In this document: piece after piece, positions 24,775 through 59,358 of the stretch
Layout: each line of letters opens with the position of its first letter
Numbering within the stretch: position 1 is the first letter of the stretch
NCBI GenBank assembly: GCA_051362555.1
Contig: CM120644.1
Span: 7,820,954 to 7,884,953 of the forward strand
Length of the DNA: 64,000 bases
Source of the DNA: Lingula anatina
Taxonomy: Eukaryota > Animalia > Brachiopoda
Reading direction: 5' to 3'
Notes under the pieces: model-generated
What the model was told of the DNA's origin: nothing
Databases searched by the model: none
The model's input: the letters and a program-made list of their open reading frames with translations, nothing else
Made by a program: the position numbers and the translations under genes

Positions 24775-27255
24775 ATGGAAAGACTGGGAAAATTTGGCTC
24801 TCTTCAAACTAGTTATTACCATAGACCGTTGTCCACTGCTGCTGCCTACGTCACGCTGCCTGAGGTTTTCGATTCCACGGCGACTAGGCTGCCCACCAAG
24901 ACTGCCGTGGTGGTATACCAGAGTCGAGACAACAGAGAATGCCTGACATTTGCTGAACTGCAGGTACACTGAAAAAATAATGCCGTGACAAAACAGTAAT
25001 AGGAGAAAATGAAGAAAAAGTATAAATTGATTTTCCTTAAATCAGTTTTCGAAAAGCGTTTGAAACTTCAATGAATTATCTCTCGTTTCCATTTCCCCTG
25101 CTGATTGTTAATCAACCACTTTTTTCTTTTTTTTCTTCCAGAACCAATCCAAGACTCTAGCAGCAGCTCTGACACGGCGAGGATATGCGCGCGGAGACCG
25201 CGTGGCCTTTTTCGCGCCAAATTGCATCGAATACTTCACAATCCAGTTAGCACTGAGTCGCATTGGCTGCAATATTTTTCTCCTTAGCAACCTCAACGCC
25301 CTGGAGTCTGACGTGTGGCAATACAAGTGTCGGGCCCTGTTTATGTACATAAAAAACAATGAAGAGGTGGACATTTGCAGAAAGTTAGTCGACAGAAAAT
25401 CTCGCGAGAGTGTGGAAAAAGACGTGATCATCTTTGGTCCAAACTGTGACGTCCCCATGGAGGGGACCGTGCCCCTGGCCAGCGTCATGGCTGCAGGAGC
25501 GGGACATGACTGGGATGACGTCAAAATTAAAGCTGGAGAGGTGGGGTCAAACCCGGATGACCCTTACTGCGTCTTCTTAACATCGGGTTCTACGGGTAAG
25601 CCCAAAGGAGTCCAGTACACCCATATCAAGTACCTACACCAGTGCAGCGTGCTGCATTCAACGGCTATAACGGAAGACAGCTGCTTCTTCAACGACCGCC
25701 CTGTGACTTGGCTGGGCGGTAGTATGACCTTGCTTAGTATGTCGGTGTTTGGAGCGACAGGAGTGACGGTGAATTCTGCTCTGGTGGTCGGCGGGGGAGA
25801 CGTGGATTTTGTAATTGGAGTCTTGAAGCGGGAGGTGTGTACAGATGCAGTGATGATGCATTATTTCATGGTGGATCTTCTACGTCGTTATAACCCGGAG
25901 ATCCACGCGGTACCCTCTCTACGACATATTTTAACAGGGGGCCAGAGGATGGATGTGGACGTCTTAAAGAAGATTCAGGCTCTATTGCCACACGTTGAGT
26001 ATCTCGTGGATAGTTACGGTTAGTTATATCACCAATTGTTGAAATAGGCGTTTATCTATTCATTTATTATTATTATTATTTTTTAAAGATATTTACATTC
26101 CATTAGCATTCATCTAACTATAATCAAAGTAAATTCTTGTTAAAGACAATATTTATTCGACAGTATATCCTGTGTACTTTATCCATATTGTACCTACCAT
26201 CGAACGTGAGTAGTTATCTTTTGCACTTCTATGTTTTCTACAGAGTCACTTTTTTAAAGAGCAGGTTGGGGGAATGAGCAGTCAATGTTCCCCATTGTCT
26301 TTGAGCATAAATGCGGGGATACCACCCTCCCGTTGATCACTCAAAACCAAAACAGTATTTTTCAGTTTTGGAAACGTTGACAAGGTACGGAAACACCCGA
26401 GAATCACCAAACGGTGCCTTTATTACTTGGGTTATTGGTGAGGGTAAGATTAAAAGTGGGAAGTCACATTCTTTCGAATGCACCTCACAGGGTCAGAGGC
26501 TCGACAGACGAGCGCCATGGTAATCAAGCTAGAGGGCTGATACACATGTTAATGTGTAACCCGTTCTCCTAAAACAATAAACATGATCCTTGACGTTCTA
26601 TTTGTTAAATGAAATCTGATGCTTTTTTACAGGGTCTGCTGAGTGCGGCCTTGTTTCAGTTGCCCAGTGTTGCCACACCTACAAGGCTTCTGACGGTGAA
26701 GAAATTTTCGACGGCATCGAAGTGAGAATCGTCGACGAAAACCACCGAGACGTCCCTCGCGGAACCAGCGGCGAAATCTGCGTGCGTTCGCCGACCGTCT
26801 ATGCCAACTGCTACGTGGACAACGAGGAAGCATCCAAGGCAGTGATTGACAACGCTGGATGGTATTGCACCGGGGACATCGGAGTTATCGACGCAGACGG
26901 GAGACTCGCGATAAGCGGCCGCAAGGATGACATGATAAAGCGAGCGACTGTTAAAATATTCCCTGTCGATATTGAGCCGATACTCAAGCAACACTCCGCC
27001 ATAAAAGATGTCGTGGTGATAGGCGTGCCTGATGATCGGTTAGGGGAGGAAATCTGTGCATGCGTCATACTAGATGATGCGTCCTCATTGGCTGACGTAA
27101 AGAGCTGGTGTAAAGAGCAGTTTTCTGTCGGACCTGATGGCCTATCAATAGCCCCTGTGTTATCCGTGCAGTTTTCTCAATTTCCCACGACTGCCTCTGG
27201 GAAAACTGATAAACGTTTGGTGAAACAGGCGGCACTGGACTATTTGAAAGTATGA
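24775..27255 (+). CDS. ANL-superfamily adenylate-forming enzyme (acyl-CoA synthetase-like), copy 1, clade A, 562 aa
   Basis: Exons 24775-24963, 25142-26018, 26633-27255 (1689 nt, GT-AG). P-loop LTSGSTGKPKG, YGSAE across intron 2, GEICVRSP, TGDIG, GRKDDMIK, GVPDDRLGEEICA, PTTASGK. N-terminus (TA.RLP.K.A.V...LTFAEL...GDRVA..APN) resembles ACSF2-type enzymes. Confidence 0.92.
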
Positions 27256-27269
27256 CTTCCATATGTGTT

Positions 27270-27283
27270 CAGGGCCGTAGCCT

Positions 27284-27316
<33 letters not shown>

Positions 27317-27802
27317 GCTGCCCCCCCCCCCTGGGATTTGAGGTGCAAAAAAAAAAAATAATCTCAAAGGTAAAAATAATAACTGCAAAGTTGGTATCAA
27401 TTCTGTGGCCAGAACTCATGGCCACTAGACAATCTAGGCTAATCATTCAACAATCTGTTTACAAAGGTGTACTGTTTTTAGCCAACTCAGTTCATGCCAA
27501 AAAACTCGCCCTCCCTTAGGGACCTATCCCCCAGGCTGTTATCAGGTTATTGTTTACCCTGACTGTTTGCCCAACAAATCTGGGAGGGCTGTTTTGAAAA
27601 AATGACTGTACTTATGGCAAAATGAACCCACGATTTCTGACTTCTGATTGAGCAATAAATAACAGTTAAAACGCACCAGAATGCAGTATTATACATACAG
27701 TTTTTAAAAATTTTCCACACCGTGGGAGGGGCACACCCACACCCACGTCCCCCTCGTGTCCGCTTACTGCCCCCCTGGCATTTTGCTCAGGCTACGGCCC
27801 TG
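27270..27802. mobile_element. hAT-like MITE inserted 14 bp after the stop codon of copy 1
   Basis: TIRs CAGGGCCGTAGCC / GGCTACGGCCCTG, subterminal poly-G/poly-C; flanks GTGTT / GTGCT (possible 5-bp TSD, 1 mismatch); absent after the stop of copy 2. Confidence 0.8.
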
Positions 27803-28383
27803 GTGCTGCGTGTATTTTTGAAAGGGCACTTACTGGGGACTTTTCAGTTATCTATGCTGTTTGGAGGCCTGTTTGCAATGTTTAAATTTTATACGGTTTT
27901 CCATACCAATTGACAGTGGTAATTTTATTACAGACGCTCGCCACATTCTTCATTTAAAATGTATCGTTGATCAGGATGAAAGAATATTCTTTTCTTTTTT
28001 CGCCCTTTGCAAATGAAAAAAGGCCACAGCTTTGTGTCATAATAATACTTATAGCATGCGGCATTGGAAAATTTGAAAGTTTGACTTTCATCTGCTGGTA
28101 CTTTTGATGGGACACGTTCCATTCGGACATACTGGATACTACCCTGAGTGTCAGAGCAACGTAAAAATTAGCTTGCAAATATTAAATATACCTTGGAGTC
28201 ATTTTTACTAGGTATTGCTGATATGGGTTATATATGAAATCAAGATCGAGCTGGCAATACCGGAATCTAGAACCTAGGGTAACTGGATACAGGTTTATAT
28301 GTCAAATGTGCTATCTATATGGTTTTCTACACTAAAATTATGTCTGTTATGATAGAGACGATGACCATTAAGTTCAAATCTAT

Positions 28384-28619
28384 GACTCCGTTCACACGGA
28401 AAGTCTATTTTCTAAAAATATATTTTCTATTCGCGGTATCTTGTAATCACGGTCCCTGTGCCCTGATTATCCCGCAGCGTAATTACTGGCGGCGCGAGCC
28501 AGTTACTTCCAAAGCTGTAATTAATTCTCGGGGTATTCAGGGCACAGGGACCGTGATTACAAGATACCGCGAATAGAAAACAGATTTTTAGAAAATAGAC
28601 TTTCCATGTGAACCAAGCC
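28384..28619. mobile_element. PIF/Harbinger (Tourist-like) hairpin MITE
   Basis: ~90-bp inverted arms (GTTCACACGGAAAGTCTATTTTCTAAAAAT...GGTATCTTGTAATCACGGTCCCTGTGCCCTGA and its reverse complement); 3-bp TSD TAT; empty paralogous site TCAAATCTATATTTGATAAGGATG at ~40471. Confidence 0.85.
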
Positions 28620-29557
28620 TATATTTGATAAGGATGCAAATTTTATTCGTATATAAATTTGTTCTACAGCTACAATTTCCTGTCTTAACACGGTAAAGAG
28701 GCCTAAGATGTGTGCCTTAATCATAATATTTTACCAGCACGACTAATATCACGCAATTTTTGTTTTAAGTAAATAGCCTAAATAACTCATGACACATTGC
28801 GATAGAGAAGCCCCGACACAATCGACATCTTGATTTGACCATTAGAGTACTTCCTTAAAAGTGTGAACTTGGACCCAACGTGTGATGTGTCCTAGGTTTG
28901 ACAAACTCATACCTGGGGCAAGGGGAGGGGTGTGAGTGCTTCCCCACTGCTTTCAAAAGCAAAACGAGTTATCCCCTCCCCCATTCCGAAATTATGGAAA
29001 AAGTAAACACGTTTCCTATTGTAGGAGCTAGGGTCGCCCATACTTGTCCCATATAATTATGTAATAGTCTCTATGTGATATTGCTATTTGCAATACGCCA
29101 TGCTGTCGAGTTACGGGGCCCAGGCTGGATAGACTTGTTTGTTATATCCTGAATAAGCCACACCCGTGTCACATGACAGTGCGTGCATTATCAGCCATTG
29201 TCATTTAGGCCTACCGATAGGCTTATAAGATTATCTCCAAGGGCGCAAGGTGCACAAAGATCCGTTGTGACGGTAAGTTGTAGACGATATAACTACATGT
29301 ACCATGGAGGTACCTGAATGGATGGTGCTTCTTTACAAATATCTTAAATCATCGATGGAGTTCTTCGATGAATTAGAAAGATGATTGTGTTTTCTTCAGG
29401 AGGTAGGGCCTATTTTGTCATTGATCTTAGCCAGTGAAATATAACTTAGTTGTTCCAATCGCATTCATTCCATGTTTTAAGCACAGATTCACCCGTGTGC
29501 ATACACACATGAACTGACAAGAGCACACACCCCTTCGCTCATAAGCACAAGAACAAG

Positions 29558-30004
29558 TTGATAAAATTGAATCCATCCAGATTAGAGCATGTAAGATTAT
29601 ATTCCCAGAGCTGCCCTACGATAGGGCATGTTTTGAAACATGGAAACTTATCACTCTTGCTTGTAGAAGAGATGAATGATCCTTAACGATATTGCATAAC
29701 ATGTACAATTTACTCTGAAGGGCACAAAATCCATCATTTGCTGCCAGAGATAAATGAAAGTTCCTATACTTTGCGCCGGGTTTATAAGTACACTGTGCCA
29801 AAATTGAGGACTGTACGGTCGTCAAAAACTTTTATCCCATGGGCTTTATCAAATTTTAAGAACTGAGGTTTTTATAAACTTTTAATGTGTATCGAATCAT
29901 TTTAACACTTACAAGTATATTTTAAGATTGTGCATCTCACGTCTATTTGCTTTTATTGTAAAATCCAACTTTTTAAGTTGCAAATAAATACATCTTATTA
30001 TTAT
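29558..30004 (+). mobile_element. 5'-truncated LINE (RT C-terminal fragment, CR1/L2-group-like)
   Basis: Translates as IESIQIRACKIIFPELPYDRAC... and ...FIPWALSNF; AATAAA then (TTA)n tail; 9-bp TSD AAGAACAAG; empty site upstream of copy 1 at ~24280. Confidence 0.8.
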
Positions 30005-30025
30005 AAGAACAAGCTCGCGCGTGCG

Positions 30026-30059
<34 letters not shown>

Positions 30060-30467
30060 ACTACGATACATAGCTCTCCGATCGGCAAGGGCGACAGTGT
30101 CGTCTTCTGACCTGTAGTTTGTTGAACGAGGATATAAAACTGGCAGTAACTGGCATATGTGACCTGAATTTCTCTTAATTTTCGCCCTCGGTGATCATTT
30201 CAGAAAAGGACGCCCCCCCCCCTTTCCCCTGAGGGTACTAATGAATTTGTGACATTATTATATCATTCTAAAGAGAAACTTGAATACACTGCAGCTCGTG
30301 AAATGTTGAAAAGGAGATAGACAAACATCGGAAACATGGCGGGATGTACTGCTACTAAGATTGAGTCACTGCTTAAATAGAGCATTATATTATTTAGGAG
30401 CTTAATAACATGAGCGTTTTGAACTTATTAGTTTTTCATTACAGGGCTTTTACACATCTATAACGAG

Positions 30468-33400: not shown

Positions 33401-33488
33401 GCAGTTTTCTCAATTTCCCACGACTTCCTCAGGGAAAACTGACAGACGTTTAGTGAAACAGGCGGCACTGGAAATTTTGAAAGTTTGA
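30468..33488 (+). CDS. ANL-superfamily adenylate-forming enzyme, copy 2, clade A, 562 aa
   Basis: Exons 30468-30656, 30925-31801, 32866-33488 (same lengths as copy 1); intact frame with LTSGSTGKPKG, YGSAE, TGDIG, GRKDDMIK, PTTSSGK. Confidence 0.92.
32081..32537 (-). mobile_element. 5'-truncated Rex1/Babar-like LINE in intron 2 of copy 2
   Basis: Minus strand YRCVIESILAHGIIIWYSG...RKKLTNVVKTAS*IIGQELP...DSFHP...FLPS...RFLNSFYPSA resembles the Rex1-type post-RT domain; (CTTAT)n tail; TTTG direct repeat; absent from the same intron of copy 1 (~26303). Confidence 0.8.
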
Positions 33489-33942
33489 CCTTCACCTGTA
33501 TTTTATTTTATCAGAGACGTTGGGCACATTCTTTATTTGAAATGTATCTTTGATAAGAGTGCAAGACATTTTATTTCATTTTTAGCTCTTTCAAGTATAC
33601 AAAAGACCGCTGCTTTGTGTAATGATAATAATAAATACACCAGTACCAGTACCAATACGTAGTGTTTAAAGAAAATCCTTGATTACATTTGCCATGCGAT
33701 GTCCGCACGGTGCTTGCTTACTGCGCATAATGTACTTTTCTTAACGGCGTTTGAGCGACGGCAGACTGTGGTCGTGCGAAATAGTATGGAATCGTACAGA
33801 TTTTCGACATTCGTACATGTAGCCTAGCTGAATCTTTTAACATTTTTTAATGGTTAGCCTGTATACCGTAGCAATATAGAGATGGCATTGCACTATTCCC
33901 GCATTGTACCCGGTACGGTAGACTTGCGGTTATCTTAAATTT

Positions 33943-34493
33943 CAGGCCTACCCAACTACTAGACTCGGCACGTAAGGATCCTGAATTAACCTGTATATCG
34001 GACCAATCTACCCGTTTTCAAGGTGTGTGTCAGATCGCATTTCGGAGTATCATACCCCAGGACAAATTTTGTAGCACGACTGCGGGCTCATCCACGCTCG
34101 GCTGAACAACCATAAACTGTACTCTTACTTTAGAGTACTCTATTTTATTGTCTCTGTGGGGATAAATGGGGACTTAACGACGTTCGGTTTGAATGTTTTA
34201 CCCACTTTTGATAGGGCGTTTTTTGCATTGTATTAGATTAATGTGGCAGCCTAAGGTTCATCTAGGAGGCTTTCAAATTTATGCACCCGGTTTTAAAATC
34301 ATATAGCGAATTACGACAATCGTTTACTATCCATTCAAGGTGACAGCCGAGCATGCCAGGGCTCATCCTGTCGGTGTTCTGGCTGATACTCCGAAATGCG
34401 ATCTGAAACACACCTTGAAAACGGGTAGTGTGGCCCGATATACCGGTTAATTCAGGATCCTTAGGTGCTGAGTCTGGTAGTTGGGTAGGCCTG
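33943..34493. mobile_element. Non-autonomous DNA transposon, family B (~110-bp TIRs)
   Basis: CAGGCCTACCCAACTACTAGACTCGGCAC...TTCAAGGTGTGTGTCAGATCGCATTTCGGAGTATCA and its reverse complement at the right end; flanks AATTT / AATTC; second copy at 63308. Confidence 0.85.
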
Positions 34494-36834: not shown

Positions 36835-38823
36835 ATGGAGCGGGTGGGAAAGCTTTACTCCTATAAAACAAGTTACCGCCATACCCCGCTGTCGACTCCC
36901 GCCGCCTACGTCACTCTACCGGAAGTCTTTGACTCCACCGCGGACCGACTGCCCACCAAGACCGCCAGGCAGCAGAGAGAATGTCTGACTTTTGCCGAAC
37001 TTCAGGTATACCGGGCTCATGCTCTTAATAATTTAAAAATTTTTATTTGTATTTTTTTAAATTTAAATTTGCTTCTTACACCCCATTTCCATAGATTAGA
37101 TCGACCTACTTTAGATCGACCTAACTCCCTGGGGGTTCACGCTAAATAGCTGTCAGCCGGGCGGACACGAAAGTTAATTATCCCCTTACAGCTTGTAGTA
37201 GGCGGGACGGACATTTAAGTCGGATTATCTGAAAGAAATCTAGTGAGACTCCCCGCGGGGATAGATCGATCTAAAATCTATGGGAATAGAGCCTTAGTGT
37301 TTCTACAGACTAATTGAATTCCACACATTTTGAAATTTGGCACTTGATCCCGTTTGAAATATGCATGTATTCACAGTTTATTAACATTGGGACGTAGCTG
37401 AAACTAGCTTAAAATAAGATGTGCCCACTAAGGGAGTGCTCTCAGATGTAAAGGAAACTATGTGGTCGGAAAGAAACATCAAGATAAAATGGTGCATTCC
37501 TGTATCTTCTGGACTCAGTTTTTCTCACTTTCATAAGTCACACATTGCAATTTCTCCTGCGCACAGGCACAGCGTATCCATGAGCGCAACATTGGCTACT
37601 TGTATGCCCAAAAAACATTAGAATTAAGAAAAAATTCACTCTCTGGGGCCTTAAGTGATTTTTTTTTTTTTTTTTTTTTTTTTTTGCAAGTAATATAAAA
37701 TAAATCAGTGAAGGAACAAATCATCGTTTTTCAAGAACAGTTGAACAAAATGAACAGAAAATAACTGAAAATGAGTAGAAAGTGCTATATTAACCATTTA
37801 AGGCCTCAGATAGAGTCGCACAACTTAAACTCAATAAAAGGTACTATTTTACGATTTTATATTACCTTTATTGTTTTGCAGAAACAGTCCAAGGTTTTGG
37901 CTACGTTACTGCTGCAGCGTGATTATTCATTTGGTGATCGCGTGGCTTTTTTCGCGCCAAACTGCATTGAATATTTTTCTGTTCAGCTGGCACTGAGTAG
38001 AATTGGGTGCAACGCGTTTCTCCTCAGCAACTTGGCCACCCTTGAAGATGACGTTTGGCAATACAGATGCCGTGCTCTGATAATGTACATAAAAACCGAC
38101 GAAGAGGTGGATGTGTGCAGAAGGATACTGGCCCGAAGATCACGCGAGAACGTGGATAAAGACATCATCATCTTTGGTCCAAAAAGTGACTTCATCACCT
38201 CTGGTCCAAAATCTAACGTCACCACTGAGGGCAATGTGACCCTCAGCAGCGTCTTTTCAGCAGGAGAGGGACAGAACTGGGAGGACGTCGTGGCGAAAAA
38301 GGGATTTGTTGCACCAAACCCAGAGGATCCACTTTGGGTTTTATTCACGTCTGGTTCCACAGGTGAACCCAAGGGAGTCCAGTACACCCATTGCAAGTTC
38401 CTACACCAACGCCCCTTTCCGGACACAGTGGAAATGGGGGATGACAGCTGTTTCTTCAACGACCGGCCGATGACTTGGTTTGGGGGCAGCATGATGTTGC
38501 TCGGTATGGCGGCGTTTGGAACGACGGGGGTTACAGTGAATTCTGCTCTTATGGTCGGCGGTGGAGACGTGGATTATGTCATTGAAATCCTGGAGAGGGA
38601 AGAATGTACGCATGCAGTGATGCTGAACTATTTCTTGGTTGATCTTGCCGCCTGTTTCAATCACTCGGTTCATTCGGTGCCTTCTCTCCGGCACATTTTA
38701 ACAGGGGGTCAAAGAATGAAGCAGGATGTCTTGAAGAAGATAATATATATACTGACTAACTTGGAAGATGTGGCAGAATGCTACGGTATGAAAACTCTCC
38801 CTCCCCCATCTTCCTGCTACTCT

Positions 38824-38859
<36 letters not shown>

Positions 38860-39626
38860 CTCTCTCTGTTTGTTGCTATACATAAATTTGTCGATTGTTT
38901 TATACGTAACATTTGAACAGCACACACAAACACACATGCCCGCACACACACGAACATCTTTTTAATGTTGAAAAATAGTGAGTACAGATCTATTTCAATA
39001 ACAGGTATGACAGAGGTGGGTTTGATTGCAAGCACCATGTGTAACAAGACATACAGTGGCCAAGACTTGGAGGACATTTACAAAGGTATTGAAGTGAGAA
39101 TCGTCGACGAAAACCACCGAGACGTCCCTCGTGGAACCAGCGGCGAAATAAGCGTGCGTTCGCCGACCATCTACGCCAATTGCTACGTGGACAACGAAAG
39201 AACTTCTCGAGAAGCGTTTGATGCAACTGGTTGGTTCTGTACTGGTGATATCGGTGTTATGAACTTGACTGGCAGGATAACAATCAGCGGACGTAAAGAT
39301 GACATGATCAAACGAGCGTCTGTTAAACTATTTCCTGCCGAAATCGAGGCAATCCTCAAACAACACCATGCTGTCAAAGATGTCGTTGTCATTGGTGCAC
39401 CGGACGTTCGGTTTGGTGAGGAAATTTGCGCGTGCGTCATTCTTGATGAAATGTCTTCACCTGCTGACGTTAAAGAGTGGTGTAAAGAAGAGTTTCCCAT
39501 TGGACGTGACGGTTTGTCTCTTGCACCGGCTTATATGTCACCTTTCGCGAATTTTCTACTACTAGTAATGGGAAAACCAACCGAAGATTGATCAAGCAAA
39601 CGGCTTTGGAAAAGCTCCAATCGTAG
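36835..39626 (+). pseudogene. ANL-superfamily enzyme copy 3, clade B, frameshifted near the C-terminus (pseudogene or assembly indel)
   Basis: Exons 36835-37005 (18-nt in-frame deletion of AVVYQS), 37882-38785, 39005-39626. A 1-nt deletion at ~39533 (gcttatatgtc versus gcttactatgtc in copies 5/6) shifts the frame before the TTSNGK motif, giving a stop at 39591; ancestral TAG at 39624-39626. Confidence 0.8.
37081..37288 (-). mobile_element. MITE family A, reverse orientation, in intron 1 of copy 3
   Basis: Reverse complement of the 4321-4527 element; not present in intron 1 of copies 4-6. Confidence 0.85.
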
Positions 39627-40044
39627 GCTTACTTCATTAATAGTGAATAATAAATGATGTTTATTGCTTAAAGGAACAGAAGGCCAATTTTTAAAGCAAT
39701 ATAGCAAATAGTAGATATTGAAAATCAAAATCGGCGCCCCTTTTCAGAGAATGTGCTTATTTTGTACGTGAGACGTTAAAAATAAAAAAAAAACATTTTT
39801 GAAAAAAAAAAAAAAAAAAAAAACACCCAAAATCCGTAAAAGAAAAGTTACCTCTGGAACTAAACTACATAACAATTCTATAGGAACAAATGAATCCATG
39901 TATCTACTACAAAACTGCAACTTGAAGATAATAAAAAATGTGTATTATTATGTTATAATAAGAAGCAAATAATAGTGAATGTTCTAAACCCACCATTACG
40001 GTAACGTTTATTTATATCATATGTAAAAACATCATTACTATATA

Positions 40045-40248
40045 AGGAAATATGCGCATGTGTCATTCTAGATGATGTGTCTTCATTGGTTATCATTTAG
40101 AGTTGTAAAAAAAAGTTTTCTGTTGAAACTGATCGCTTGTCAGTGGCGCCAATGTTATGCATGCAGTTATTCTGTGTCCAACGACTGCTACTGTGAAACT
40201 AAAAAACGTTTAGTGAAACAGGCGGCATCGTAAATAATGAAAGGTTGA
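40045..40248 (+). pseudogene. Decayed 3' end of a clade A ANL enzyme
   Basis: ggaaatatgcgcatgtgtcattctagatgatgtgtcttcattgg...cgtttagtgaaacaggcggca...aaaggttga matches EICACVILDD...RLVKQAALE.LKV* of copies 1/2. Confidence 0.85.
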
Positions 40249-40867
40249 CTTTCATTTACTGGTATTTTTGATGGGACACGTGCCATTCAGACAGTTATAC
40301 TGGATACAGGCTTATATATCAAATGTGCTTTCTATATTGTTTTCTACACTAAAATGATGACCCTTATAAGAGACGACAGCCATAAACTTAATTGTACATT
40401 TGATAGGGATGCAAGACAATATTCACTGTTCTACAGCTGCAATTTCCTTTTCAGATTAACATACTTTATTTCAAATCTATATTTGATAAGGATGTAAGAT
40501 ATTTTTCATATAAGTTCTTCTACAGCTACAATTTTCCCCCTTGAAACAGCGAAAAGACCTCAGATATGTGCTTAATCATAAAACATTTTACCAGTACAAG
40601 TAATATCACACAATTCATATTCTAAGTATATGCTAGCTGTATAGCCTATTTGTTGTGCTATATTTTCCTGCAAATTCTGTAGCTGTCACTTTCCATCAGT
40701 GGATTTCATCCTTTCTATCACACGTATTTCTAAAAGCTAGATAAATGGCAAATGCTTACTGCTAGTATACTATTTCATAAGTGAGAGATTGAGCATTTTG
40801 AGTAGATGGCTCGTATCAAAAACGTGAGTAGCATGTGTAACAAAATAAAAAAGTCTTCATCCAATGC

Positions 40868-43385: not shown

Positions 43386-45108
43386 ATGGACCGCGTGGGG
43401 AAACTTTACTCCTATAAAACAAGTTACCACCATACCCCGATGTCGACTCCCACCGCCTACGTCACTCTACCGGAAGTGTTTGACTCCACCGCGGACCGAC
43501 TGCCCACCAAGACAGCCGCTGTGGTTTACCAGAGCAGGCAGCAGAGAGAATGTCTGACTTTTGCCGAACTTCAGGTATACCGGGTTTATACCTGTATCTG
43601 CTTTTAAATATTTAAAAATCTTTTTTGGGGGGATTTTTTTTAATTTTGTTTTTCCCAACAGTTATTTTTGTGAATTTTGACTATTTGTGAATTTGAGGGG
43701 CTAAATGTAGGTAGAAAAGCAGGGGTTTTCATTCAAACATTGACGAGGGGAGGGCTGTTTGGAAAACGACTACATTTTGTAGACTTGTGAAAATGATGAT
43801 GAAATGAATAACACCAAAATCAACAGTGAAAGCATTGCACGGGAAACGGTTGCAAAGAAAAATTTAATACTTGTTTTTATTTTCGAATATATTTCACTCT
43901 CTTGACATTGGAATAACATTGGAAAGCAGTGAATGTTTCTCTTTACTACAATGTATCACGTCTTGAAATCTTTTTTTTTTTTTTTTAGTATGTCATAAAA
44001 AAAGTTTAAAAAAAGGCCCCAAATAGTGAAGTTCTCCTTTGACTCACAAAGAATACTTCTTTACGATTTTTTAAAAATTGCCTTAATTGTTTTACAGAAA
44101 CAGTCCAAAACACTGGCTGCATCACTTTTGCAACGTGGGTATACATTTGGGTATCGTGTGGCTTTTTTCGCGCCAAACTGCATTGAATATTTTTCTGTTC
44201 AGCTGGCATTGAGTCGCATTGGCTGCAACACGTTTCTTCTCAGCAACTTGGCCACCCTTGAAGATGACGTTTGGCAATACAAATGCCGTGCTCTGATAAT
44301 GTACATAAGAACCGACGAAGAGGTGGATGTATGCAGAAAGATACTCGCCCGAAGATCACGTGAGAACGTGGATAGAGACGTCATCATCTTTGGTCCCAAA
44401 AATGACGTCATCACCTCTGGTCCAAAATATGAGGTCACCACGGAGGGTACCGTGACCCTCAGCAACGTCTTTTCAGCAGGAGAGGGACAGAACTGGGAGG
44501 ACCTCGTGGCAAAAATGGGATGGATGGCACCAAACCCGGAGGACCCACTTTGGGTCTTATTTACGTCTGGTTCCACTGGTAAACCCAAGGGAGTCCAGTA
44601 CACCCATACCAAGTATCTACACCAGTGTCCCTTCCTTGCCATGGCAAGTATCGGGGACGACAGCTGTTTCTTCAACGACCGCCCTGTTACCTGGCTTGGC
44701 GGTAGCATGACGTTGCTTAGTATGGCAGCGTTTGGAGCGACAGGAGTGACAGTGAATTCTGCTTTGGTGGTCGGTGGTGGAGACATGGATTTTGTCATAG
44801 AAATCCTTCAGCAGGAAAAGTGTTCGCATACATCAATGATGCATTATTTTATGGTTGATCTTTTCGCCCGTTTCGATCCCTCGGTTCATTCGGTGCCTTC
44901 TCTTCGGCACATTCTTACAGGGGGTCAAAGAATGAACCTGGATGTCATAAAGAAAATACAAGGCCTGTTGACTAACGTGGTAGATGTGGCAGAATGTTAC
45001 GGTATGATTACTCACAATCTCTCTCTCTGTTTCTACACATAGATTTGCTATTATTGTTTAATACGTTTATCTTTGAATAGCACTTCCCTTCCACGACACA
45101 TATACCCG

Positions 45109-45148
<40 letters not shown>

Positions 45149-45843
45149 AACTCTTTTGATGATTATTTCATGTTTATATACACTGTAGAAACACCAAGTA
45201 CAGAACTGTCTTAACTACAGGTACGGCCGAGGTGGGTTTGATGGCGGGCACCCTATGCAACCAGACTTACAATGGCCAAGACGGGGAAGAAATTTACGAA
45301 GGTACAGAAGTAAGAGTTTTGGACGAAAACCACCGAGACGTCCCTCGCGGAACCAGCGGCGAAATATGCGTGCGTTCGCCGACCATCTACTCCAATTGCT
45401 ACGTGGACAACGAGAGGGCCTCTCGAGAAGCGTTTGATGCAACTGGTTGGTTCTGTACTGGTGATATCGGTGTTATGAGCCTGAATGGTAGGATAACAAT
45501 CAGCGGACGTAAAGATGACATGATCAAACGAGCAACGCTTAAACTATTTCCTGCAGAAATCGAGGCAATCCTCAAGCAGAACCATGTCGTCAAAGATGTC
45601 GTTGTCATTGGCGCACCGGACGTCCGGCTGGGTGAGGAAATTTGCGCTTGCGTCATTCTCGATGAAGTGTCGTCACTGGCTGACGTTAAAGAGTGGTGTA
45701 AAGAAAAGTTCTCCATTGGACGTGACGGTTTATCTCTTGCACCGGCTTACTATGTTACTTTTTGCGAATTTCCTACCACAAGTAATGGGAAAACCAACCG
45801 AAAGTTGATCAAGCAAACGGCTTTGGAAAAGCTGCAATTATAG
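43386..45843 (+). CDS. ANL-superfamily adenylate-forming enzyme, copy 4, clade B, 571 aa
   Basis: Exons 43386-43574, 44098-45001, 45221-45843 (1716 nt); FTSGSTGKPKG, YGTAE, TGDIG, GRKDDMIK, PTTSNGK intact. Confidence 0.92.
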
Positions 45844-48789: not shown

Positions 48790-51309
48790 ATGGACCGCGT
48801 GGGGAAATTTTACTCCTGTAAAACAAGTTACCACCATACCCCGATGTCGACTCCAAACGCCTACGTCACTCTTCCGGAAATCTTTGACTCCACCGCGGAC
48901 CGACTGCCCACCAAGACAGCCGCTGTGGTTTACCAGAGCAGGCAGCAGAGAGAATGTCTGATTTTTGCCGAACTTCAGGTATACCGGGCTCATTCCAGTA
49001 TATGCTTTTGATAATTTAATCTTTTTAAAATTTAATCTTCCTAACAGACATTTTCTGCGCATTTAGGCCACTTCGGGGGTTAGTTAGAGTAACAGGGTGT
49101 TTCAACCAAATGTTGACGTCGGTGATGTTGAAATGTAATACAAATAATGACTCAAATTGCTGTCAAGGGTCATCATTTTAACGTTTTGCCTTCTGCTCTC
49201 TGAAGAGGGGAAGATTGTCTGGGAAAGACTACACTTTGTAAGGCCCGTAGCCAGCAATTTTAGAGGGCGGGTTCGTTTTCTGAAAAAGTGGACCTTTTAC
49301 CATAAAATCCTCAAGTACATAGATCAAATTGTACCCAGAGTGGACCTTTTCCCAGCAAAAAGGGTGGTTCTTTCGAACCCCCCCGAACCCCCCTTAGCTA
49401 CGGGCCTGCTTTGTAGACAAATTGACGATAAACTGGTTAACCCCTAATTGATCAATAAACAAAAATTCTGCAAATGGCTGTAACCAAGAATAACCTAACA
49501 TTTCAGCCATTTAATGTCTCAGATCGTGACGCTCTCCACTAACTCACAAAGAATACCACTTAACGATGTATATTTTTAATTGTCCTTATTGTTTTGCAGA
49601 AACAGTCCAAAACATTGGCTGCTTCACTGCTGCAGCGTGGATATACTTTTGGGGATCGTGTGGCTTTTTTCGCGCCAAACTGCATTGAATATTTTTCTGT
49701 TCAGCTGGCACTGTGTCGTATTGGCTGCAACGCGTTTCTCCTCAGCAACTTGGCCACCCTTGAAGATGACGTTTGGCAATACAGATGCCGTGCTCTCATA
49801 ATGTACATAAGAACAGGCGAAGAGGTGGATGTTTGCAGAAAGATACTCACCCGAAAATCACGCGAGAACGTGGATAGAGACGTCATCATCTTTGGTCCCA
49901 AAATTGACGTAATCAGTTCTGGTCCAAAATTTGACGTTACCACGGAGGGCACTGTGACCCTCAGCAGCGTCTTTGCAGCGGGAGAGGGACAAAATTGGGA
50001 GGACATCGTGGTGAAAAAGGGATGGGTGGCACCAAACCCAGAGGACCCTCTTTGGGTCTTATTCACGTCGGATTCCACAGGTAAGCCCAAGGGAGTCCAG
50101 TATACCCATACCAAGTATCTACACCAGTGTCCCTTCCTTGCCATGGCGAGTATCGGGGACGACAGCTGTTTCTTCAACGACCGCCCTTTTACCGGGCTTG
50201 GCGGTAGCTTGACGTTGCTTAGTATGGCAGCGTTTGGAGCGACAGGAGTGACGGTGAATTCTGCTCTGGTGATTGGTGGTGGAGACATGGATTTTGTCAT
50301 GGAAATCCTGAAGAGAGAAGAATGTACGCATATTGTAATGATGCACTATTTAATGGTTGATCTTGTCGCCCTTTTCGATCCCTCGGTCCATTCTGTGCCT
50401 TCTCTCCGGTATATTCTGACAGGGGGTCAGAGAATGAAGTTGGATGTCATACAGAATATACTAGATCTGCTGACGAACGTGGAAGTTGTGGCAGAATGTT
50501 ACGGTACGATAACTTTCTCTCTCTCTCTTTGTTTCTACACATAAATTGGCTATGATTGCTTTATACGTGAATATTTGAGCAGTACCCCCTTCCCCAACAC
50601 AGACACGCGCACACGAATACACACGAACACTTTTGATGGTCTTTTAATGTTGAGAAACACTAACTAAAGAACTGTCTCAATAACAGGTACGACAGAGGTG
50701 GGTTTGATGGCGGGCACCCTATGCAACCAGGCATACAATAGCCAAGACGGGGAAGACATTTACGAAGGTACAGAAGTGAGAATCGTCGATGAAAACCATC
50801 GAGATGTCCCTCGCGGAACCAGCGGCGAAATCTGCGTGCGTTCGCCGACCATCTACGCCAATTGTTACGTGGACAACGAGAGAGCTTCTCGAGAAGCGTT
50901 TGATGCATCTGGCTGGTTTCGTACAGGTGATATCGGTGTTATGAGCTTGACTGGCAGGATAACAATTAGCGGGCGTAAAGATGACATGATCAAGCGAGCG
51001 AGTGATAAACTATTTCCTGCAGAAATCGAGGCAATCCTCAAACAACACCATGCTGTCAAAGATGTCGTCGTCATAGGCGCACCGGACGTCCGGTTGGGTG
51101 AGGAAATCTGCGCATGTGTCATTCTTGATGAGGCTTCTTCACTGGCTCACGTTAAAGAGTGGTGTAGAGAGAAGTTTCCTATTGGATTTGACGGCTTGTC
51201 TCTTGCGCCCGCTTACTATGTCACTTTTGGCGAATTTCCTACAACAATTTATGGGAAGACCAACCGAAGGTTGATCAAACAAACGGCTTTTGAAAAGCTG
51301 CAATTGTAG
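48790..51309 (+). CDS. ANL-superfamily adenylate-forming enzyme, copy 5, clade B, 571 aa (variant P-loop)
   Basis: Exons 48790-48978, 49600-50503, 50687-51309; open frame, but P-loop reads FTSDSTGKPKG and A4 region PFTGLGG. Confidence 0.9.
49241..49408. mobile_element. Short hAT-like MITE in intron 1 of copy 5
   Basis: TIRs AGGCCCGTAGC / GCTACGGGCCT; duplicated target CTTTGT(A); empty site AGACTACACTTTGTAGAC in copy 6 intron (~57463). Confidence 0.85.
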
Positions 51310-51887: not shown

Positions 51888-51918
<31 letters not shown>

Positions 51919-51991
51919 TTTCAAACAACTCCTAATGTGAAACTGAAAGACTTTAGTGAAACAGGCGGCATTGGAAAATTTGAAACTTTGA
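51779..51991 (+). pseudogene. Decayed 3' end of a clade A ANL enzyme
   Basis: ggtgaggaaatatgtgcatgcgtc...ttttctgtcggacctgatggc...tttagtgaaacaggcggcattggaaaatttgaaactttga matches GEEICACV...FSVGPDG...VKQAALE of copies 1/2, with deletions. Confidence 0.85.
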
Positions 51992-52676
51992 CTCTCATAT
52001 GTGGGTACTTCCGATGTGACACGTGTGTCATTTAAACCTTTTTGCTTTAATTTTGCTCAAATGTGTTTTTTATAAGGCTTTCTACACTAAAATGATGCCT
52101 GTTATAAGAGACGATAACCATGAACTTTATTTCCAAGGTATATTTGATAGGGATGCAAGACTATACTCAAATAAACTGTTCTACAGCTACAATTTCCCGC
52201 CTTAACACTGTAAAAAGGTATCAAATTTGTGCCTCAATCATATGATATTTTATCAGTACCAGTTGTTATATACATGTAATACACAATTCGTGTTGAAAGT
52301 GAATGCTAGCTATATAGCCTTTTGACTGTGCTATATTTTCCTGCAAGTTCTGTATTTGTCACATTGGTGAAACCTTATATAAGTCGATTTCATCTTTCTT
52401 TTTTATCACACGTATTTCAGAAGTATTTCATAAGTGGGAGATGGATCATTTGTATAGATGGCTTGTAGTGTAATATTGAAAAGAGAAATAGGTCCAACGA
52501 GTGATTTCTTATACATGTATTTATATGACCCTGAGGCCTAAAGTAATCTTATAGATTCATGATTCAAATACGCTGCGAAAGACAACCAAGGTCAAATGAA
52601 AGGTCTGTGACTACGATAAAAGTTTAACTACGTAAAATTATTAGGGACGGCGCTGACGCTGATATATATATATATA

Positions 52677-54342
52677 CAGCATTGGTCAAAAAGGTTGTCC
52701 CACCCCCATTTCCATGTACTTTTATTTACAAATGATCACCTAACAGCTGTGAACTGTTAGAAATAGTGCTTTTTATCACGGATACCGTGTCTAACATGAT
52801 TAATGGTTAAAAAAATACAAAATAGTGGTGAAAATATACATATTTTATACCATTTAGTAAAATTTATAAGAGGTACCCCCTCAAATCGACTGTTTCACTG
52901 TTACTTCTACAGATGTAAAGAAATGTCTATAAAATTGAAAAGGTGCCATCAAATGTCACCAAATTCACACACAATTAGCATTAGGGTGTGCTCGTTAAAG
53001 ATCACGTGCCTAACAGCGTGTGCGTCTACCGCGTACTGCAATTATCTCCTGTAGACGGAGCGACAAGCCTTCAACATGGGTAACAATTCTGTAATGTGGG
53101 ATATTGTCCCATTCATCCAAAAGAGCGTGGCGGAATTGGTCAAGATTATTTAGGAATTGGTTCTTCTCTGCAATGCACATTCCAATTTATGCCACAGGTG
53201 CTCAGTAGGATTAATATCAGGACTCAAAGACGGTTGTCCCATCCTCAGAGCCCTGTGTTTCTGCAACAAATCGTTTGCCAGACGAGAGCTGTGAGCAAGT
53301 GCGTCGTCACAATGAAGCCAGTAGTATCCCTGAAGTCACCTCTTGCAAATGGAGTGAGATTTCTGTTGAGAATGTTACATCAAAATGCCCCTGTTACGTT
53401 TTGTTCCAAAAGGAACAATGTACTAATACCATGGGCTTGGAATGTTCTCCAAATGCGGATTGATCTAACACCTCAGGCGATATTATCCTGCACACACCCT
53501 TCCAAGAGGCATTTTTAACAAGTCTATGGACCCTCTTTGACCATCGATGGGATACAAGAAATAATTTGATTCTGCATCAAAATCAACTTCCTTCCAGTGA
53601 TGGATGGCCAGGTTCAGGTGCCTGTGGGATCACTGAACGTAGCATTCTAAGCTGATATCTCATTCCATCTTCAAGAACTGACTTTGGGGTTAACTTCAGG
53701 CTTTATCATGACTGCACACTTGCTCACATCTCTCGCCTGGCAACTGTTTGTTGAAGAAACATAATGGTCTAAGGATGGAACCACCATCTTTGAGCCCTGA
53801 TATCAAACTTACGAATCAACTGTGACATGTATTGGAGTGTGCAATGCAAAGGAGAACCAACCCCATAAAAACGTGGACCAACTCCCCCAACTTGTTTAAG
53901 AAGAATGGGACAATATCCCACAAAACAGAATTGTAACCCATGTTGAAGGCTTGTCGCGCCGTCTACAGGAAATAATTGCAGTACGCGGTAGACGCACACG
54001 CTGTTAGGCACGTGATCTTTAATGAGCACACCCTAATGCTAATTGTGTGTGAATTTGGTGACATTTGATGGCGTCTTTTTAATTTTATAGTCATTTCTTT
54101 ACATCTTTAGAAGTCACAGTGAAACAGTCGATTTGAGGGGGTACCTCTTATAAATTTTACTAAATGGTATAAAATATGTATATTTTCACCACTATTTTGT
54201 ATTTTTTTAACCATTAATCATGTTAGACACGGTATACGTAATAAAAAAAACACTATTTCTAACAATTAACAGCTGTTAGGTGATCATTTGTAAATAAAAG
54301 TACATGGAAATGGGGGTGGGACAACCTTTTTGACCAATGCTG
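52677..54342. mobile_element. Palindromic Tc1-family derivative (two inverted transposase 3' halves)
   Basis: Termini CAGCATTGGTCAAAAAGGTTGTCCCACCCC and reverse complement, TA on both sides; ~700-bp inverted arms; left arm minus strand encodes DDALAHSSR...SLSPDINPTEHLW with 34 residues between D and E (DD34E), right arm carries the same motif on +. Confidence 0.88.
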
Positions 54343-54656
54343 TATGTCAGTTTTGGAGATATACCCGGTATGGGACGGAAAACTTGCAAAGTGCAGTTCA
54401 TCATGAAAAGTATAGGATAAACGGGGTCCTTTTGGACTGCTATTTTTGGATTGATTATATGAATGATTGCAATGAAATATGACTCCACGATACATGCCTA
54501 TGAATAAATGCTATCGGTAGGCCAATGATAGCAAACTCTTCTTTGCTTATTCTAAACCCATCGTCAGCAGCACAATAATGAGAATAAGAAACATAAATTG
54601 ACCTCGGGGTCAATCCAAAAATACCGATCCAATGGCACGGCTTCATTTCATAAAGC

Positions 54657-56477: not shown

Positions 56478-56585
56478 CCCAGCAAACACGTCACGTTGGT
56501 ACCACGTGGTTAATCCGTGTCTATGACGTTATAATGTGGTAGCAACGTGCTGGCCACGTGATCCGAATGTGACGTGTTTGCTGGG
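56478..56585. mobile_element. 108-bp hairpin MITE, family C (CCCAGCAAACAC ends, 2-bp TSD)
   Basis: CCCAGCAAACACGTCAC ... GTGACGTGTTTGCTGGG flanked by AT/AT; absent from the paralogous site near 42910. Confidence 0.8.
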
Positions 56586-57018
56586 ATATGTAGTCACATA
56601 CATGTATGCCTTTTATGTTGCTCGAAAACAATTCCATTTCCAATTCCATATCCCAAGCTTCATTTACGATGAAAGAATTTTATTATCGCAAATGTCGAAT
56701 TCATGGCGCGAACGTAAAATTAACGGTCGCAAGCATCTAATAATAGAGCACAAACAATTAGGCCAGCTTTCGGGCCTGAAGTTGTTTACATACTGGTTAT
56801 TTTTCCCAACCCTAACTAGTTTCAATACGGGAGTAATGCAGGAGTTATTTAAGGCCATGATATCGAGGTTTGAGTCGTTAAATCGGCGTTCGCAATCACA
56901 AATCCGAGGTTTAACATCACGAACAGCTAGTTTGTTTATGAGGCCTATATATATCTAAAAGGACTTCATTTTTTTTATCGAAAAATGTATTCAATTCCAG
57001 AATTAACCAAACTGAGAT

Positions 57019-59358
57019 ATGGATCGCGTGGGAAAACTTTACTCCTGTAAAACAAGTTACCACCATACCCCGATGTCGACTCCTACCGCCTACATCACTC
57101 TGCCGGAAGTCTTTGACTCCACCGCGGACCGACTGCCCACCAAGACCGCCGCCGTGGTTTACCAGAGCAGGCAGCAGAGAGAATGTCTGACTTTTGCCGA
57201 ACTTCAGGTATACCGGGCTCATACCAGTATATGCTTTTGATAATTAGTCTTTTTTTTTATTTTAAAATTTCGTTTTCCTAACAGTTATTTTCTGTGCATT
57301 TTGACCACTTCGGGGGTTCGTTAGAGAAGCAGGGTGTTTCAACCAAATATTACGTCAATTGTATTGAATAATGCTAAAATAATGACCCAAATTGCTGTCA
57401 AGAGTCATATCATTTTAACTTTTTGCCTTCTGCTCTCTGAAGAGGGGAAGGCTGTCTGGAAAAGACTACACTTTGTAGACTTGTCAAAATGATGATAAAA
57501 TGGATAACCCCTAAATCAACAATGAACAAAATGCAACGGATAATAACCTAACATTTTAGCCATTTAATGTCTCAGATAGTGGCGTTCTCCTTTAACTCAC
57601 AAAGAATACCACTTAAAGATTTTTTAAAATTACCTTTATTGTTTTGCAGAAACAGTCCAAAACATTGGCTGCTTCACTGCTGCAGCGTGGGTATACATTT
57701 GGGGATCGCGTGGCTTTTTTCGCGCCAAACTGCATTGAATATTTTTCTGTTCAGCTGGCATTGTGTCGTATTGGCTGCAACGCGCTTCTCCTCAGCAACT
57801 TGGCCACCCTTGAAGATGACGTTTGGCAATACAGATGCCGTGCTCTCATAATGTACTTAAGAACAGACGAAGAGGTGGATGTATGCAGAAAGATACTCAC
57901 CCGAAAATCAAGCGAGAACGTAGATAAAGACGTCATCATCTTTGGTCCCAAATTTGACGCCATCACCTCTGGTCCAAAATGTGACGTCACCACGGAGGGC
58001 ACTGTGACCCTCAGCAGCGTCTTTGCAGCAGGAAAGGGACAGAACTGGGAGGACGTCGTGGCGAAAAAGATATGGGTGGCGCCAAACCCAGAGGACCCAC
58101 TTTTGGTCTTATTCACGTCTGGTTCCACAGGTAAACCCAAGGGAGTCCAATACACCCATAGCAAGTATCTACACCAGTGTCCCTTCCTCGCCATGTCGAG
58201 TTTCGGGGACGACAGCTGTTTCTTCAACGACCGGCCGATGACTTGGCTGGGAGGTAGCATGACGCTGCTTAGAATGGCGGTGTTTGGAGGGACAGGAGTG
58301 ACGGTGAATTCTGCTCTGGTGATTGGTGGTGGAGACATGGATTTCGTCATGGAAATCCTGAAGAGGGAGGAATGTACGCATACGGTGATGATGCACTATT
58401 TCATGGTTGATCTTGTCTCCCGATTCGATCCCTCCGTCCACTCGTTGCCTTTTCTTCGGCACATAATAACAGGGGGTCAGAGAATTAATCTAGATGTCAT
58501 AAAGAAAGTACAAGGCCTGCTGACTAACGTGGAAGGTGTGTCAGAATGTTACGGTATGATAACTTTCTCTGTCTCTCTCTTACTACACATGAATTTCCTA
58601 TGATTGTTTAATAGGCTAACATTTGAACAGCACCTCCTTTCTCCAGTACAGACACGCACACACAAATACACAAGAACACTTTTGGTGGTTATTTAATGTT
58701 GAGAAACAATAAGGACAGAACTGTCTAAATAACAGGTACGGCAGAGGTGGGTTTGATGGCGGGCACCCTATGCAACCAGACATACAATAGCCAAGACGGG
58801 GAAGAAATTTACGAAGGTACAGAAGTGAGAATCGTCGATGAAAACCACCGAGACGTCCCTCGCGGAACCAGCGGCGAAATCTGCGTGCGGTCGCCAACCA
58901 TCTACGCCAATTGCTACGTGGACAACGAGAAGGCCTCACGAGAAGCGTTTGATGCGACTGGCTGGTTTTGTACAGGTGATATTGGTGTTATGAGTTTGAC
59001 TGGCAGGATAACAATTTGCGGTCGTAAAGATGACATGATCAAGCGTGCGACTTTTAAACTATTTCCTGCTGAAATAGAGGGAATCCTCAAGCAACACCAT
59101 GCTGTCAAAGATGTCGTTGTCATTGGCGCACCGGACGTCCGGTTGGGTGAAGAAATTTGCGCGTGCGTCATTCTTGATGACGTTTCGTCACTGGCTGACG
59201 TTAAAGAGTGGTGTAAAGAAAAGTGTCCCATTGGACGTGACGGTTTGTCTCTTGCACCGGCTTACTATGTCACTTTTTGCGAATTTCCTACCACAAGTAA
59301 TGGGAAAACCAACCGAAGGCTCCTTAAACAAACGGCTTTAGAAAAGCTGCGGTTGTAG
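57019..59358 (+). CDS. ANL-superfamily adenylate-forming enzyme, copy 6, clade B, 571 aa
   Basis: Exons 57019-57207, 57650-58553, 58736-59358; FTSGSTGKPKG, YGTAE, TGDIG, GRKDDMIK, PTTSNGK intact. Confidence 0.92.

What the first reader, a model, noticed from the sequence alone, without database searches (positions are those of the whole stretch)
24775..59358. Six-gene tandem array of atypical adenylate-forming enzymes: candidate animal specialised-metabolism (or luciferase-like) locus
Seen: six co-oriented ANL genes with identical 3-coding-exon structure over ~35 kb, in two clades (1-2; 3-6), five with open frames. They start directly at the domain (no evident mitochondrial presequence) and end LKV/LQL/LRL (not PTS1), so are probably cytosolic. 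Established: ANL enzymes include acyl/aryl-CoA ligases, NRPS A domains and beetle luciferases, the last having arisen by tandem duplication of a fatty acyl-CoA synthetase; ANL-type luciferases are also known from firefly squid. Inference: recent expansion plus altered motifs (see next findings) points to a lineage-specific chemistry (defence compound, pheromone, pigment, detoxification or light emission), not housekeeping lipid activation. The substrate cannot be read from the sequence.
Basis: partly seen in the sequence, partly recalled or inferred. Interest (0 to 1): 0.8.

Follow-up and report, generated by a model that had tools for sequence, protein, structure and literature searches.

The report
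Brachiopod acid-activating enzymes lacking CoA glycine
A lamp shell (Lingula) carries six side-by-side genes, five with intact reading frames, for acid-activating enzymes in which a glycine that related enzymes need to attach coenzyme A is replaced, so they likely join the activated acid to some other small molecule; the firefly squid's light-organ proteins likely belong to the same invertebrate family, but no sign of light production was found here.

Summary
The array is real: six co-oriented, three-exon ANL (adenylate-forming) genes in two subgroups, under purifying selection (dN/dS 0.14-0.34). Gene 3 has a frameshift that removes the catalytic A10 lysine. The window matches Lingula anatina RefSeq proteins labelled 'ACSF2-like' or uncharacterised (97-99.8% identity for the five intact genes). 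They are not ordinary ACSF2 copies. They sit on long branches in a separate clade with an N-D-R-P..W motif at A4, which also holds sea-anemone proteins and an independent tandem burst in Actinostola. The key find is the A8 glycine that lines the CoA tunnel, whose mutation to Leu in 4-chlorobenzoate:CoA ligase kills only the thioester step. It is Thr/Ser in all six genes and is kept by only 2 of 32 clade representatives, against 238 of 239 other ANL proteins and 775 of 786 NRPS sites. All adenylation motifs are intact. Best reading (0.5): enzymes that adenylate a hydrophobic acid and transfer it to a non-CoA acceptor, probably an amine. Main rival (0.35): CoA ligases with a remodelled tunnel. 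By eye, the squid luciferase candidates share the A4 signature and wsluc1 lacks the glycine, but a luciferase role in Lingula is unsupported (0.03).

The parts
24775..27255 (+). ANL gene 1, 562 aa; exons 24775-24963, 25142-26018, 26633-27255; intact; A8 residue Thr
   Evidence: 97.0% to RefSeq XP_013398299
30468..33488 (+). ANL gene 2, 562 aa; exons 30468-30656, 30925-31801, 32866-33488; intact; low-level stranded RNA coverage
   Evidence: 96.8% to XP_013398300
35184..35330 (+). decayed exon-3 fragment (A8 region) of a further copy
36835..39627 (+). ANL gene 3; exons 36835-37005, 37882-38785, 39005 to about 39627; 18-nt deletion in exon 1, K-to-E in the P-loop, and a 1-nt deletion late in exon 3 that removes the A10 lysine; probable recent pseudogene or assembly error
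   Evidence: no RefSeq protein above 81% identity was retrieved
40023..40255 (+). decayed 3' end of a gene-1/2-type exon 3
43386..45843 (+). ANL gene 4, 571 aa; exons 43386-43574, 44098-45001, 45221-45843; intact
   Evidence: 98.6% to XP_013404141
46290..46498 (+). decayed 3' end of a gene-1/2-type exon 3
48790..51309 (+). ANL gene 5, 571 aa; exons 48790-48978, 49600-50503, 50687-51309; open frame; A4 Trp-to-Gly, A8 residue Ser; P-loop G-to-D only in this assembly
   Evidence: 99.8% to XP_013404142
51778..52003 (+). decayed 3' end of a gene-1/2-type exon 3
57019..59358 (+). ANL gene 6, 571 aa; exons 57019-57207, 57650-58553, 58736-59358; intact
   Evidence: 99.8% to XP_013404143

Best explanation
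This is a tandem array of six Lingula ANL genes, five with open frames, from an uncharacterised invertebrate subfamily in which the CoA-tunnel glycine of motif A8 is replaced; the enzymes likely adenylate a hydrophobic carboxylic acid and then likely transfer it to a small non-CoA acceptor, probably an amine, to make an amide. Shown: the gene structure, intact A3/A5/A7/A10 adenylation motifs in genes 1, 2, 4 and 6 (gene 5 has a P-loop change in this assembly only), purifying selection, the separate long-branch clade, and the clade-wide loss of the A8 glycine. Inferred: acyl-AMP formation (from motif conservation); a non-amino-acid, hydrophobic substrate (pocket positions are mostly hydrophobic, with no Asp after the A4 aromatic residue); a blocked or re-purposed pantetheine tunnel (by analogy to one published mutant); cytosolic location; and small differences in substrate range among the copies. 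Speculative: an amine as the acceptor, with the clade's A4 arginine anchoring an anionic group. The array likely grew by unequal crossing-over, because a decayed gene-1/2-type tail follows each of genes 3, 4 and 5.
For: Register: Arg452+9 is Thr461 in P0004, matching Arg400+9 = Gly409 in 4-chlorobenzoate:CoA ligase. There Gly409 lines the pantetheine tunnel, and G409L loses only thioesterification (PMC6122825, passages). The R-A-T of gene 4 aligns to R-G-G of oxalate-CoA ligase. Gly at this column: 238 of 239 non-clade ANL proteins and 775 of 786 motif matches in 153 long NRPS-like proteins, against 2 of 32 non-redundant clade representatives (16 of 62 before removing redundancy). A7 Asp is present in 62 of 62 clade rows and A10 Lys in 54 of 62 (5 gaps). 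dN/dS is 0.14-0.34 in all 15 pairs. The clade has SH-aLRT 98-99. The AlphaFold model is a complete ANL fold (pLDDT 86). Pocket positions differ among the copies. No carrier-protein, PKS or NRPS domain was found among 148 of 163 other ORFs scanned. The squid crystal protein wsluc1, proposed in that paper to act on coelenterazine disulfate, has Asp at the glycine position by my reading of a peptide.
Against: No enzyme of this clade was assayed here or found assayed in my searches. Thr and Ser are smaller than the Leu of the published mutant, and a naturally evolved loop may be compensated; I recall a Gly-to-Ser mutant of acetyl-CoA synthetase being milder, but the paper was not held. Two clade members do have Gly. 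An origin from ACSF2, a true CoA ligase, is not rejected (AU p = 0.41). The A4 Trp and the A5 Thr-to-Ala are not unusual: human medium-chain CoA ligase has Trp at A4. The fold search ties aryl-AMP ligases, CoA ligases, amide bond synthetases and luciferases, so it does not choose among them. The acceptor cannot be read from sequence.
Confidence: 0.5

Rival explanations
1. They are acyl- or aryl-CoA ligases, a fast-evolving offshoot of ACSF2 with a remodelled but working CoA tunnel, expanded to activate dietary or xenobiotic hydrophobic acids.
For: The nearest outgroups are ACSF2-like and bacterial FadD-like CoA ligases. Clade plus animal ACSF2 as one group is not rejected. Most ANL enzymes of this size are CoA ligases (established knowledge). 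Two clade members carry the glycine. Repeated tandem expansion suits detoxification families (inference).
Against: The glycine is kept in 238 of 239 outgroup ANL proteins and 775 of 786 NRPS sites, and is lost in 30 of 32 clade representatives, where the column tolerates T, S, A, I and Y. No NCBIfam CoA-ligase model reached its cut-off, although only single exons were scanned, which lowers scores.
Confidence: 0.35
2. They are luciferases like the squid wsluc proteins.
For: The squid crystal proteins share the A4 signature (N-G/S-R-H..Y against N-D-R-P..W) and an ungapped 82-residue N-terminal register with gene 1 (32 of 82 identical by eye; 0 of 238 outgroup rows are ungapped there). The clade has Lys at the column that matches the recalled firefly Lys443 in 51 of 62 rows.
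Against: The same paper places wsluc with non-luminous octopus proteins (PMC4899746, passages). 32 of 82 equals the best outgroup value. I recall no luminous brachiopod (recalled, not searched). Genes 1-2 are barely expressed in four runs of unknown tissue. That lysine is also usual in NRPS domains.
Confidence: 0.03
3. They are stand-alone adenylation enzymes that load acids onto a carrier protein of an animal PKS/FAS or NRPS encoded elsewhere.
For: The best Foldseek matches are aryl-acid adenylating enzymes of NRPS pathways (CahJ, EntE, PchD).
Against: Carrier proteins use the same pantetheine tunnel, and NRPS domains keep the glycine (775 of 786). No carrier gene was found in the window. The fold ranking is nearly tied.
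Confidence: 0.06
4. They stop at the adenylate, or act mainly as ligand-binding or structural proteins, as some of the three squid crystal paralogues might.
For: The second-step loop is degenerate across the clade, and gene 5 has lost the A4 aromatic residue.
Against: ATP-binding and catalytic residues are conserved under purifying selection. Free acyl-adenylates are reactive and are rarely end products (established knowledge).
Confidence: 0.06

Closest known systems
Animal ACSF2 (medium-chain acyl-CoA ligase), the RefSeq label of several of these proteins
   Same: ANL fold and adenylation motifs; 25-29% identity; the nearest animal outgroup; shared ancestry not rejected
   Different: Separate long-branch clade; N-D-R-P..W instead of the P-x-F/Y-H type A4; R-A-T instead of R-G-G at A8; no evident mitochondrial presequence; multi-copy tandem arrays
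Watasenia scintillans photophore crystal proteins wsluc1-4 (candidate luciferases) and their non-luminous octopus relatives
   Same: By eye: A4 N-x-R..W/Y signature, ungapped N-terminal register, and loss of the A8 glycine in wsluc1
   Different: The squid P-loops are altered (T-S-G-T-S-G or T-S-G-T-T-G against T-S-G-S-T-G); no tree could include them; no light organ or luciferin is known for Lingula (recalled)
Uncharacterised anthozoan ANL proteins (Actinostola sp. QZH41_003240-3247 array; Actinia tenebrosa XP_031567739)
   Same: Same clade, the same A4 and A8 signatures, and tandem expansion
   Different: Independent burst; 31-34% identity to the Lingula proteins
ANL amide bond synthetases (McbA, PDB 6sq8; Streptomyces hindustanus enzyme, PDB 8ppp)
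   Same: Model for the proposed chemistry: adenylate attacked by an amine without CoA (established knowledge); same fold, Z 41.0, rmsd 2.9, 412 aligned for 8ppp
   Different: Bacterial, about 22% identity, tied with many CoA ligases; no evidence of special kinship; their A8 residue was not inspected

Membership tests
ANL superfamily | AMP-binding plus C-terminal domain and two-domain fold | tested here: met
   PF00501 and PF13193; model pLDDT 86 matches ANL structures
ANL superfamily | P-loop, A5 Glu, A7 Asp, A8 Arg, A10 Lys | tested here: met
   All present in genes 1, 2, 4 and 6; gene 5 has a P-loop G-to-D in this assembly only; gene 3 lacks the A10 Lys
ANL superfamily | ATP-dependent adenylation of a carboxylate | not testable with these tools
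   needs an enzyme assay
ACSF2 orthologues | groups inside the animal ACSF2 clade on ordinary branches | tested here: not met
   Separate clade with long stems in two quick trees; a sister relationship is not rejected; the ACSF2-like set held only six animal rows and no vertebrate or Lingula ACSF2
ACSF2 orthologues | N-terminal mitochondrial presequence | tested here: inconclusive
   Excluded for genes 3-6 by an upstream in-frame stop; not excluded for genes 1-2
acyl/aryl-CoA ligases | A8 glycine lining the pantetheine tunnel | tested here: not met
   Thr or Ser in 6 of 6 genes; Gly in 238 of 239 outgroup proteins
acyl/aryl-CoA ligases | forms acyl-CoA | not testable with these tools
   needs an enzyme assay
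NRPS amino-acid adenylation domains | Asp after the A4 aromatic residue, and a linked or adjacent carrier domain | tested here: not met
   Leu or Phe at that position (position mapped by recalled motif register); no carrier domain in 148 of 163 other ORFs
beetle luciferases | peroxisomal PTS1 and luciferin-pocket residues | tested here: not met
   C-termini LKV/LQL/LRL (consensus recalled); A4 is N-D-R-P..W; about 20% identity and not ranked above other ANL folds
squid wsluc family | shared clade | tested here: inconclusive
   By-eye motif and register agreement only; the squid proteins were not retrieved by the searches and are not in the trees
squid wsluc family | light emission with coelenterazine disulfate and ATP | not testable with these tools
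   needs an assay

The most novel reading that the evidence does not exclude
An old invertebrate ANL subfamily, present in cnidarians, brachiopods and probably molluscs, gave up CoA chemistry by remodelling the pantetheine tunnel. It now works as a repeatedly expanded set of CoA-independent ligases for animal small molecules, and the firefly squid luciferases arose from this already CoA-free family rather than from an ordinary fatty acyl-CoA synthetase.
Probability: 0.3. Interest if true: 0.8.

Novelty: new variant of a known kind. Interest (0 to 1): 0.5.

Why it matters
Proteins of this clade are auto-annotated as 'ACSF2-like' CoA ligases, probably wrongly. If the clade is CoA-independent, it is an overlooked family of animal biosynthetic or conjugating enzymes, with a single-residue prediction (Thr461) that a simple assay can test. 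It would also identify the non-luminous stock from which the squid ANL luciferases came and suggest why they could move to a non-thioester reaction. The tandem array alone is ordinary gene-family behaviour.

Tried and rejected
No whole genome was held, so copy number rests on RefSeq proteins. The run search listed no RNA holder; this is not evidence on expression. Expression and the frameshift of genes 3-6 were left unchecked. The 50%-representative profile search was swamped by multi-module NRPS proteins and added only three clade members among its best 150. The three homology searches did not retrieve named squid, octopus or bivalve proteins (each scored only 7997 candidates). The careful tree did not finish, so both trees are 'quick', without bootstrap, and long branches meet at P0148/P0152. 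Fold searches did not discriminate among ANL subfamilies. The pocket-code regex misfired for some rows and was redone for the six genes. Primary papers on the A8 glycine were not held. The A4 Trp and A5 Thr-to-Ala were rejected as unusual features. A PKS/NRPS-type gene cluster was rejected for this window. Earlier scan findings returned nothing by sequence or genome, and only unrelated prokaryote-type ANL arrays by words. Literature searches for this clade or the glycine loss found no description; they cover open-access text only.
Full report
Observation. tblastn of the gene 1 exons against the window finds six full three-exon copies on the + strand and four extra exon-3 fragments. All 12 introns are GT-AG at identical positions. 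Genes 1, 2, 4, 5 and 6 give open frames of 562 or 571 residues. Gene 3 has an 18-nt deletion in exon 1 and a 1-nt deletion late in exon 3, which removes the A10 lysine. Genes 1-2 are 93% identical, genes 3-6 are 79-89%, and the groups are 65-69% identical. dN/dS is 0.14-0.34 in all 15 pairs, with gene 3 masked after the frameshift. Decayed gene-1/2-type tails follow genes 3, 4 and 5, which suggests growth by unequal crossing-over (inference).

Identity. The five intact genes match Lingula anatina RefSeq proteins at 96.8-99.8%, named 'ACSF2, mitochondrial-like' or uncharacterised; gene 3 has no match above 81%. So the genes are already annotated, and the window appears to be another haplotype or assembly. 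The only difference between gene 5 and its RefSeq protein is a P-loop Gly-to-Asp, so that change may be an allele or an error. In all, 21 named Lingula proteins of this family on 8 scaffolds were retrieved. The scaffolds pair up as near-identical, probably uncollapsed haplotypes, which gives about four tandem loci (inference).

Family. The nearest non-Lingula relatives are ten Actinostola records, six of them on one scaffold, an Actinia protein, and unnamed ENA/Logan proteins at about 31-34% identity. The nearest ESM Atlas cluster is mostly molluscan (a lead only). In a 77-row tree the family is one clade of 38 rows (SH-aLRT 98). All Lingula rows group together (99), the seven Actinostola rows form their own burst (100), and six animal ACSF2-like rows group apart with bacterial FadD-like proteins. 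A 37-row tree agrees (clade 99) and places the clade next to the ACSF2/FadD group. An AU test does not reject clade plus animal ACSF2 as one group (p = 0.41). The family may therefore be an old, fast-evolving ACSF2 offshoot, but its members are not ordinary co-orthologues. Both trees are quick trees without bootstrap, with long branches, and lack beetle luciferases, 4CL, vertebrate ACSF2 and the squid proteins.

Motifs. The adenylation machinery is intact: P-loop, A5 Glu, A7 Asp (62 of 62 clade rows), A8 Arg and A10 Lys (54 of 62, 5 gaps). Two features mark the clade. A4 reads N-D-R-P..W (Asp in 60 of 62, Arg in 54 of 62; neither is among the commonest residues listed for 239 other rows). At A8 the residue nine positions after the invariant Arg is Thr (Ser in gene 5). 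In 4-chlorobenzoate:CoA ligase this position is Gly409 (Arg400+9); it lines the phosphopantetheine tunnel, and G409L loses activity only in the thioester step (PMC6122825: passages and part 1 of section 6 read; the primary papers were not held). The direct alignment to oxalate-CoA ligase shows R-A-T against R-G-G. The column is Gly in 238 of 239 non-clade ANL proteins of 300-760 aa fetched by then (the sister row P0145, which has Glu, was counted in neither set). It is Gly in 775 of 786 regex matches in 153 long NRPS-like proteins. In the clade it is Gly in 16 of 62 rows, most of them near-identical members of one cluster, or in 2 of 32 cluster representatives (P0152 read). Pocket positions, mapped by recalled NRPS register, are mostly hydrophobic, lack the amino-acid-binding Asp, and vary among the copies. 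The AlphaFold model of the gene-1 RefSeq match (pLDDT 86) is a complete ANL fold; aryl-AMP ligases, CoA ligases, amide bond synthetases and luciferases score nearly alike.

The squid link. PMC4899746 (passages and parts 2-3 of supplementary file 2 read; sequences there are cut at 400 letters and the alignment figure is not held) reports that the Watasenia crystal proteins group with non-luminous octopus proteins and are 24-26% identical to human ACSF2. By eye, wsluc1 and the 545-residue crystal protein (comp83251) carry N-G/S-R-H..Y where the clade has N-D-R-P..W. The latter aligns without gaps to residues 13-94 of gene 1 with 32 of 82 identities (my count). Among 238 outgroup rows the mean is 21, the maximum 32, and none is ungapped; non-Lingula clade rows give 18-37. 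A wsluc1 peptide, placed by downstream conserved Glu and His, puts Asp at the A8 glycine position (my reading). This makes membership of one broad family likely but is not a phylogenetic test. PMC7708342 (passages and one supplement search; its alignment file could not be read and may bear on this) built a tree with invertebrate adenylating enzymes and does not mention Lingula.

Expression. Reads from 4 runs (6-25% of each read; tissues unknown) were laid on 23000-36400 only. Gene 2 has depth of about 0.4-3, on the strand expected for sense RNA, in two runs of one study (roughly 1 RPKM, my estimate). Gene 1 has sporadic reads, one run shows almost nothing on the exons, and no splice junction reached the three-read threshold. 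Most coverage lies on interspersed repeats. So genes 1-2 are not abundant housekeeping transcripts in these samples; genes 3-6 were not examined.

Neighbourhood. Upstream lie an MFS transporter gene (SLC17-like by my reading) and an opposite-strand C-type lectin/mucin-like gene. Pfam scans of 148 of 163 other ORFs of 62 codons or more found no carrier protein, PKS, NRPS or tailoring enzyme.

Mechanism and verdict. The most likely function is ATP-dependent adenylation of a hydrophobic acid, followed by transfer to a small non-CoA nucleophile, probably an amine (0.5 for non-CoA chemistry; the amine itself is a guess). CoA ligation through a remodelled tunnel remains a strong rival (0.35), because Thr is smaller than the tested Leu, two members have Gly, and ACSF2 ancestry is not rejected. 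A luciferase role is unlikely (0.03). Nine literature searches (listings only unless named above) found no description of this clade or of its glycine loss, within open-access text. The array itself is ordinary; the subfamily and its testable second-step change are the interesting part. Interest 0.5; new variant of a known kind.

Noticed in passing
window 6341-11943 (+): Multi-exon MFS transporter gene (Pfam MFS_1 on two exons; SLC17/sialin-like by my reading), about 13 kb upstream of the array; no link to the array shown.
   Followed up: partly
window 14226-17500 (-): Gene with a C-type lectin domain, a sushi-like cysteine exon, a long Ser/Thr/Ala mucin-like repeat (21-bp unit, 15294-15646) and a cysteine-rich end with a hydrophobic, GPI-like tail.
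   Followed up: partly
window 52674-54345: Long inverted repeat between genes 5 and 6, arms of about 708 bp at 88% identity, with decayed cysteine-rich reading frames; probably a transposon relic; no Pfam hit.
   Followed up: partly
window 27470-28810 and 33940-34500: Interspersed, partly palindromic repeats (MITE-like) that collect most RNA reads, with many loose ends, so the reads probably come from other loci.
   Followed up: partly
gene 5, exon 2 (49600-50503): The A4 aromatic residue is Gly instead of Trp, also in RefSeq, and the A8 and A10 loops are the most divergent of the intact copies; a candidate for changed function or early decay.
   Followed up: partly
window 44377-44441, 49879-49937, 57929-57993: A 27-bp internal duplication in exon 2 explains the 9-residue insertion of genes 3-6 relative to genes 1-2.
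   Followed up: yes
proteins P0134-P0144, P0163, P0263 (Actinostola sp.): An independent tandem expansion of the same glycine-less clade in a sea anemone; one record is a fused double model and one carries retroelement domains.
   Followed up: partly
A8 motif of the clade: Lys at the column matching the recalled firefly Lys443 in 51 of 62 clade rows against 10 of 239 other rows; also common in NRPS domains, so not diagnostic.
   Followed up: partly
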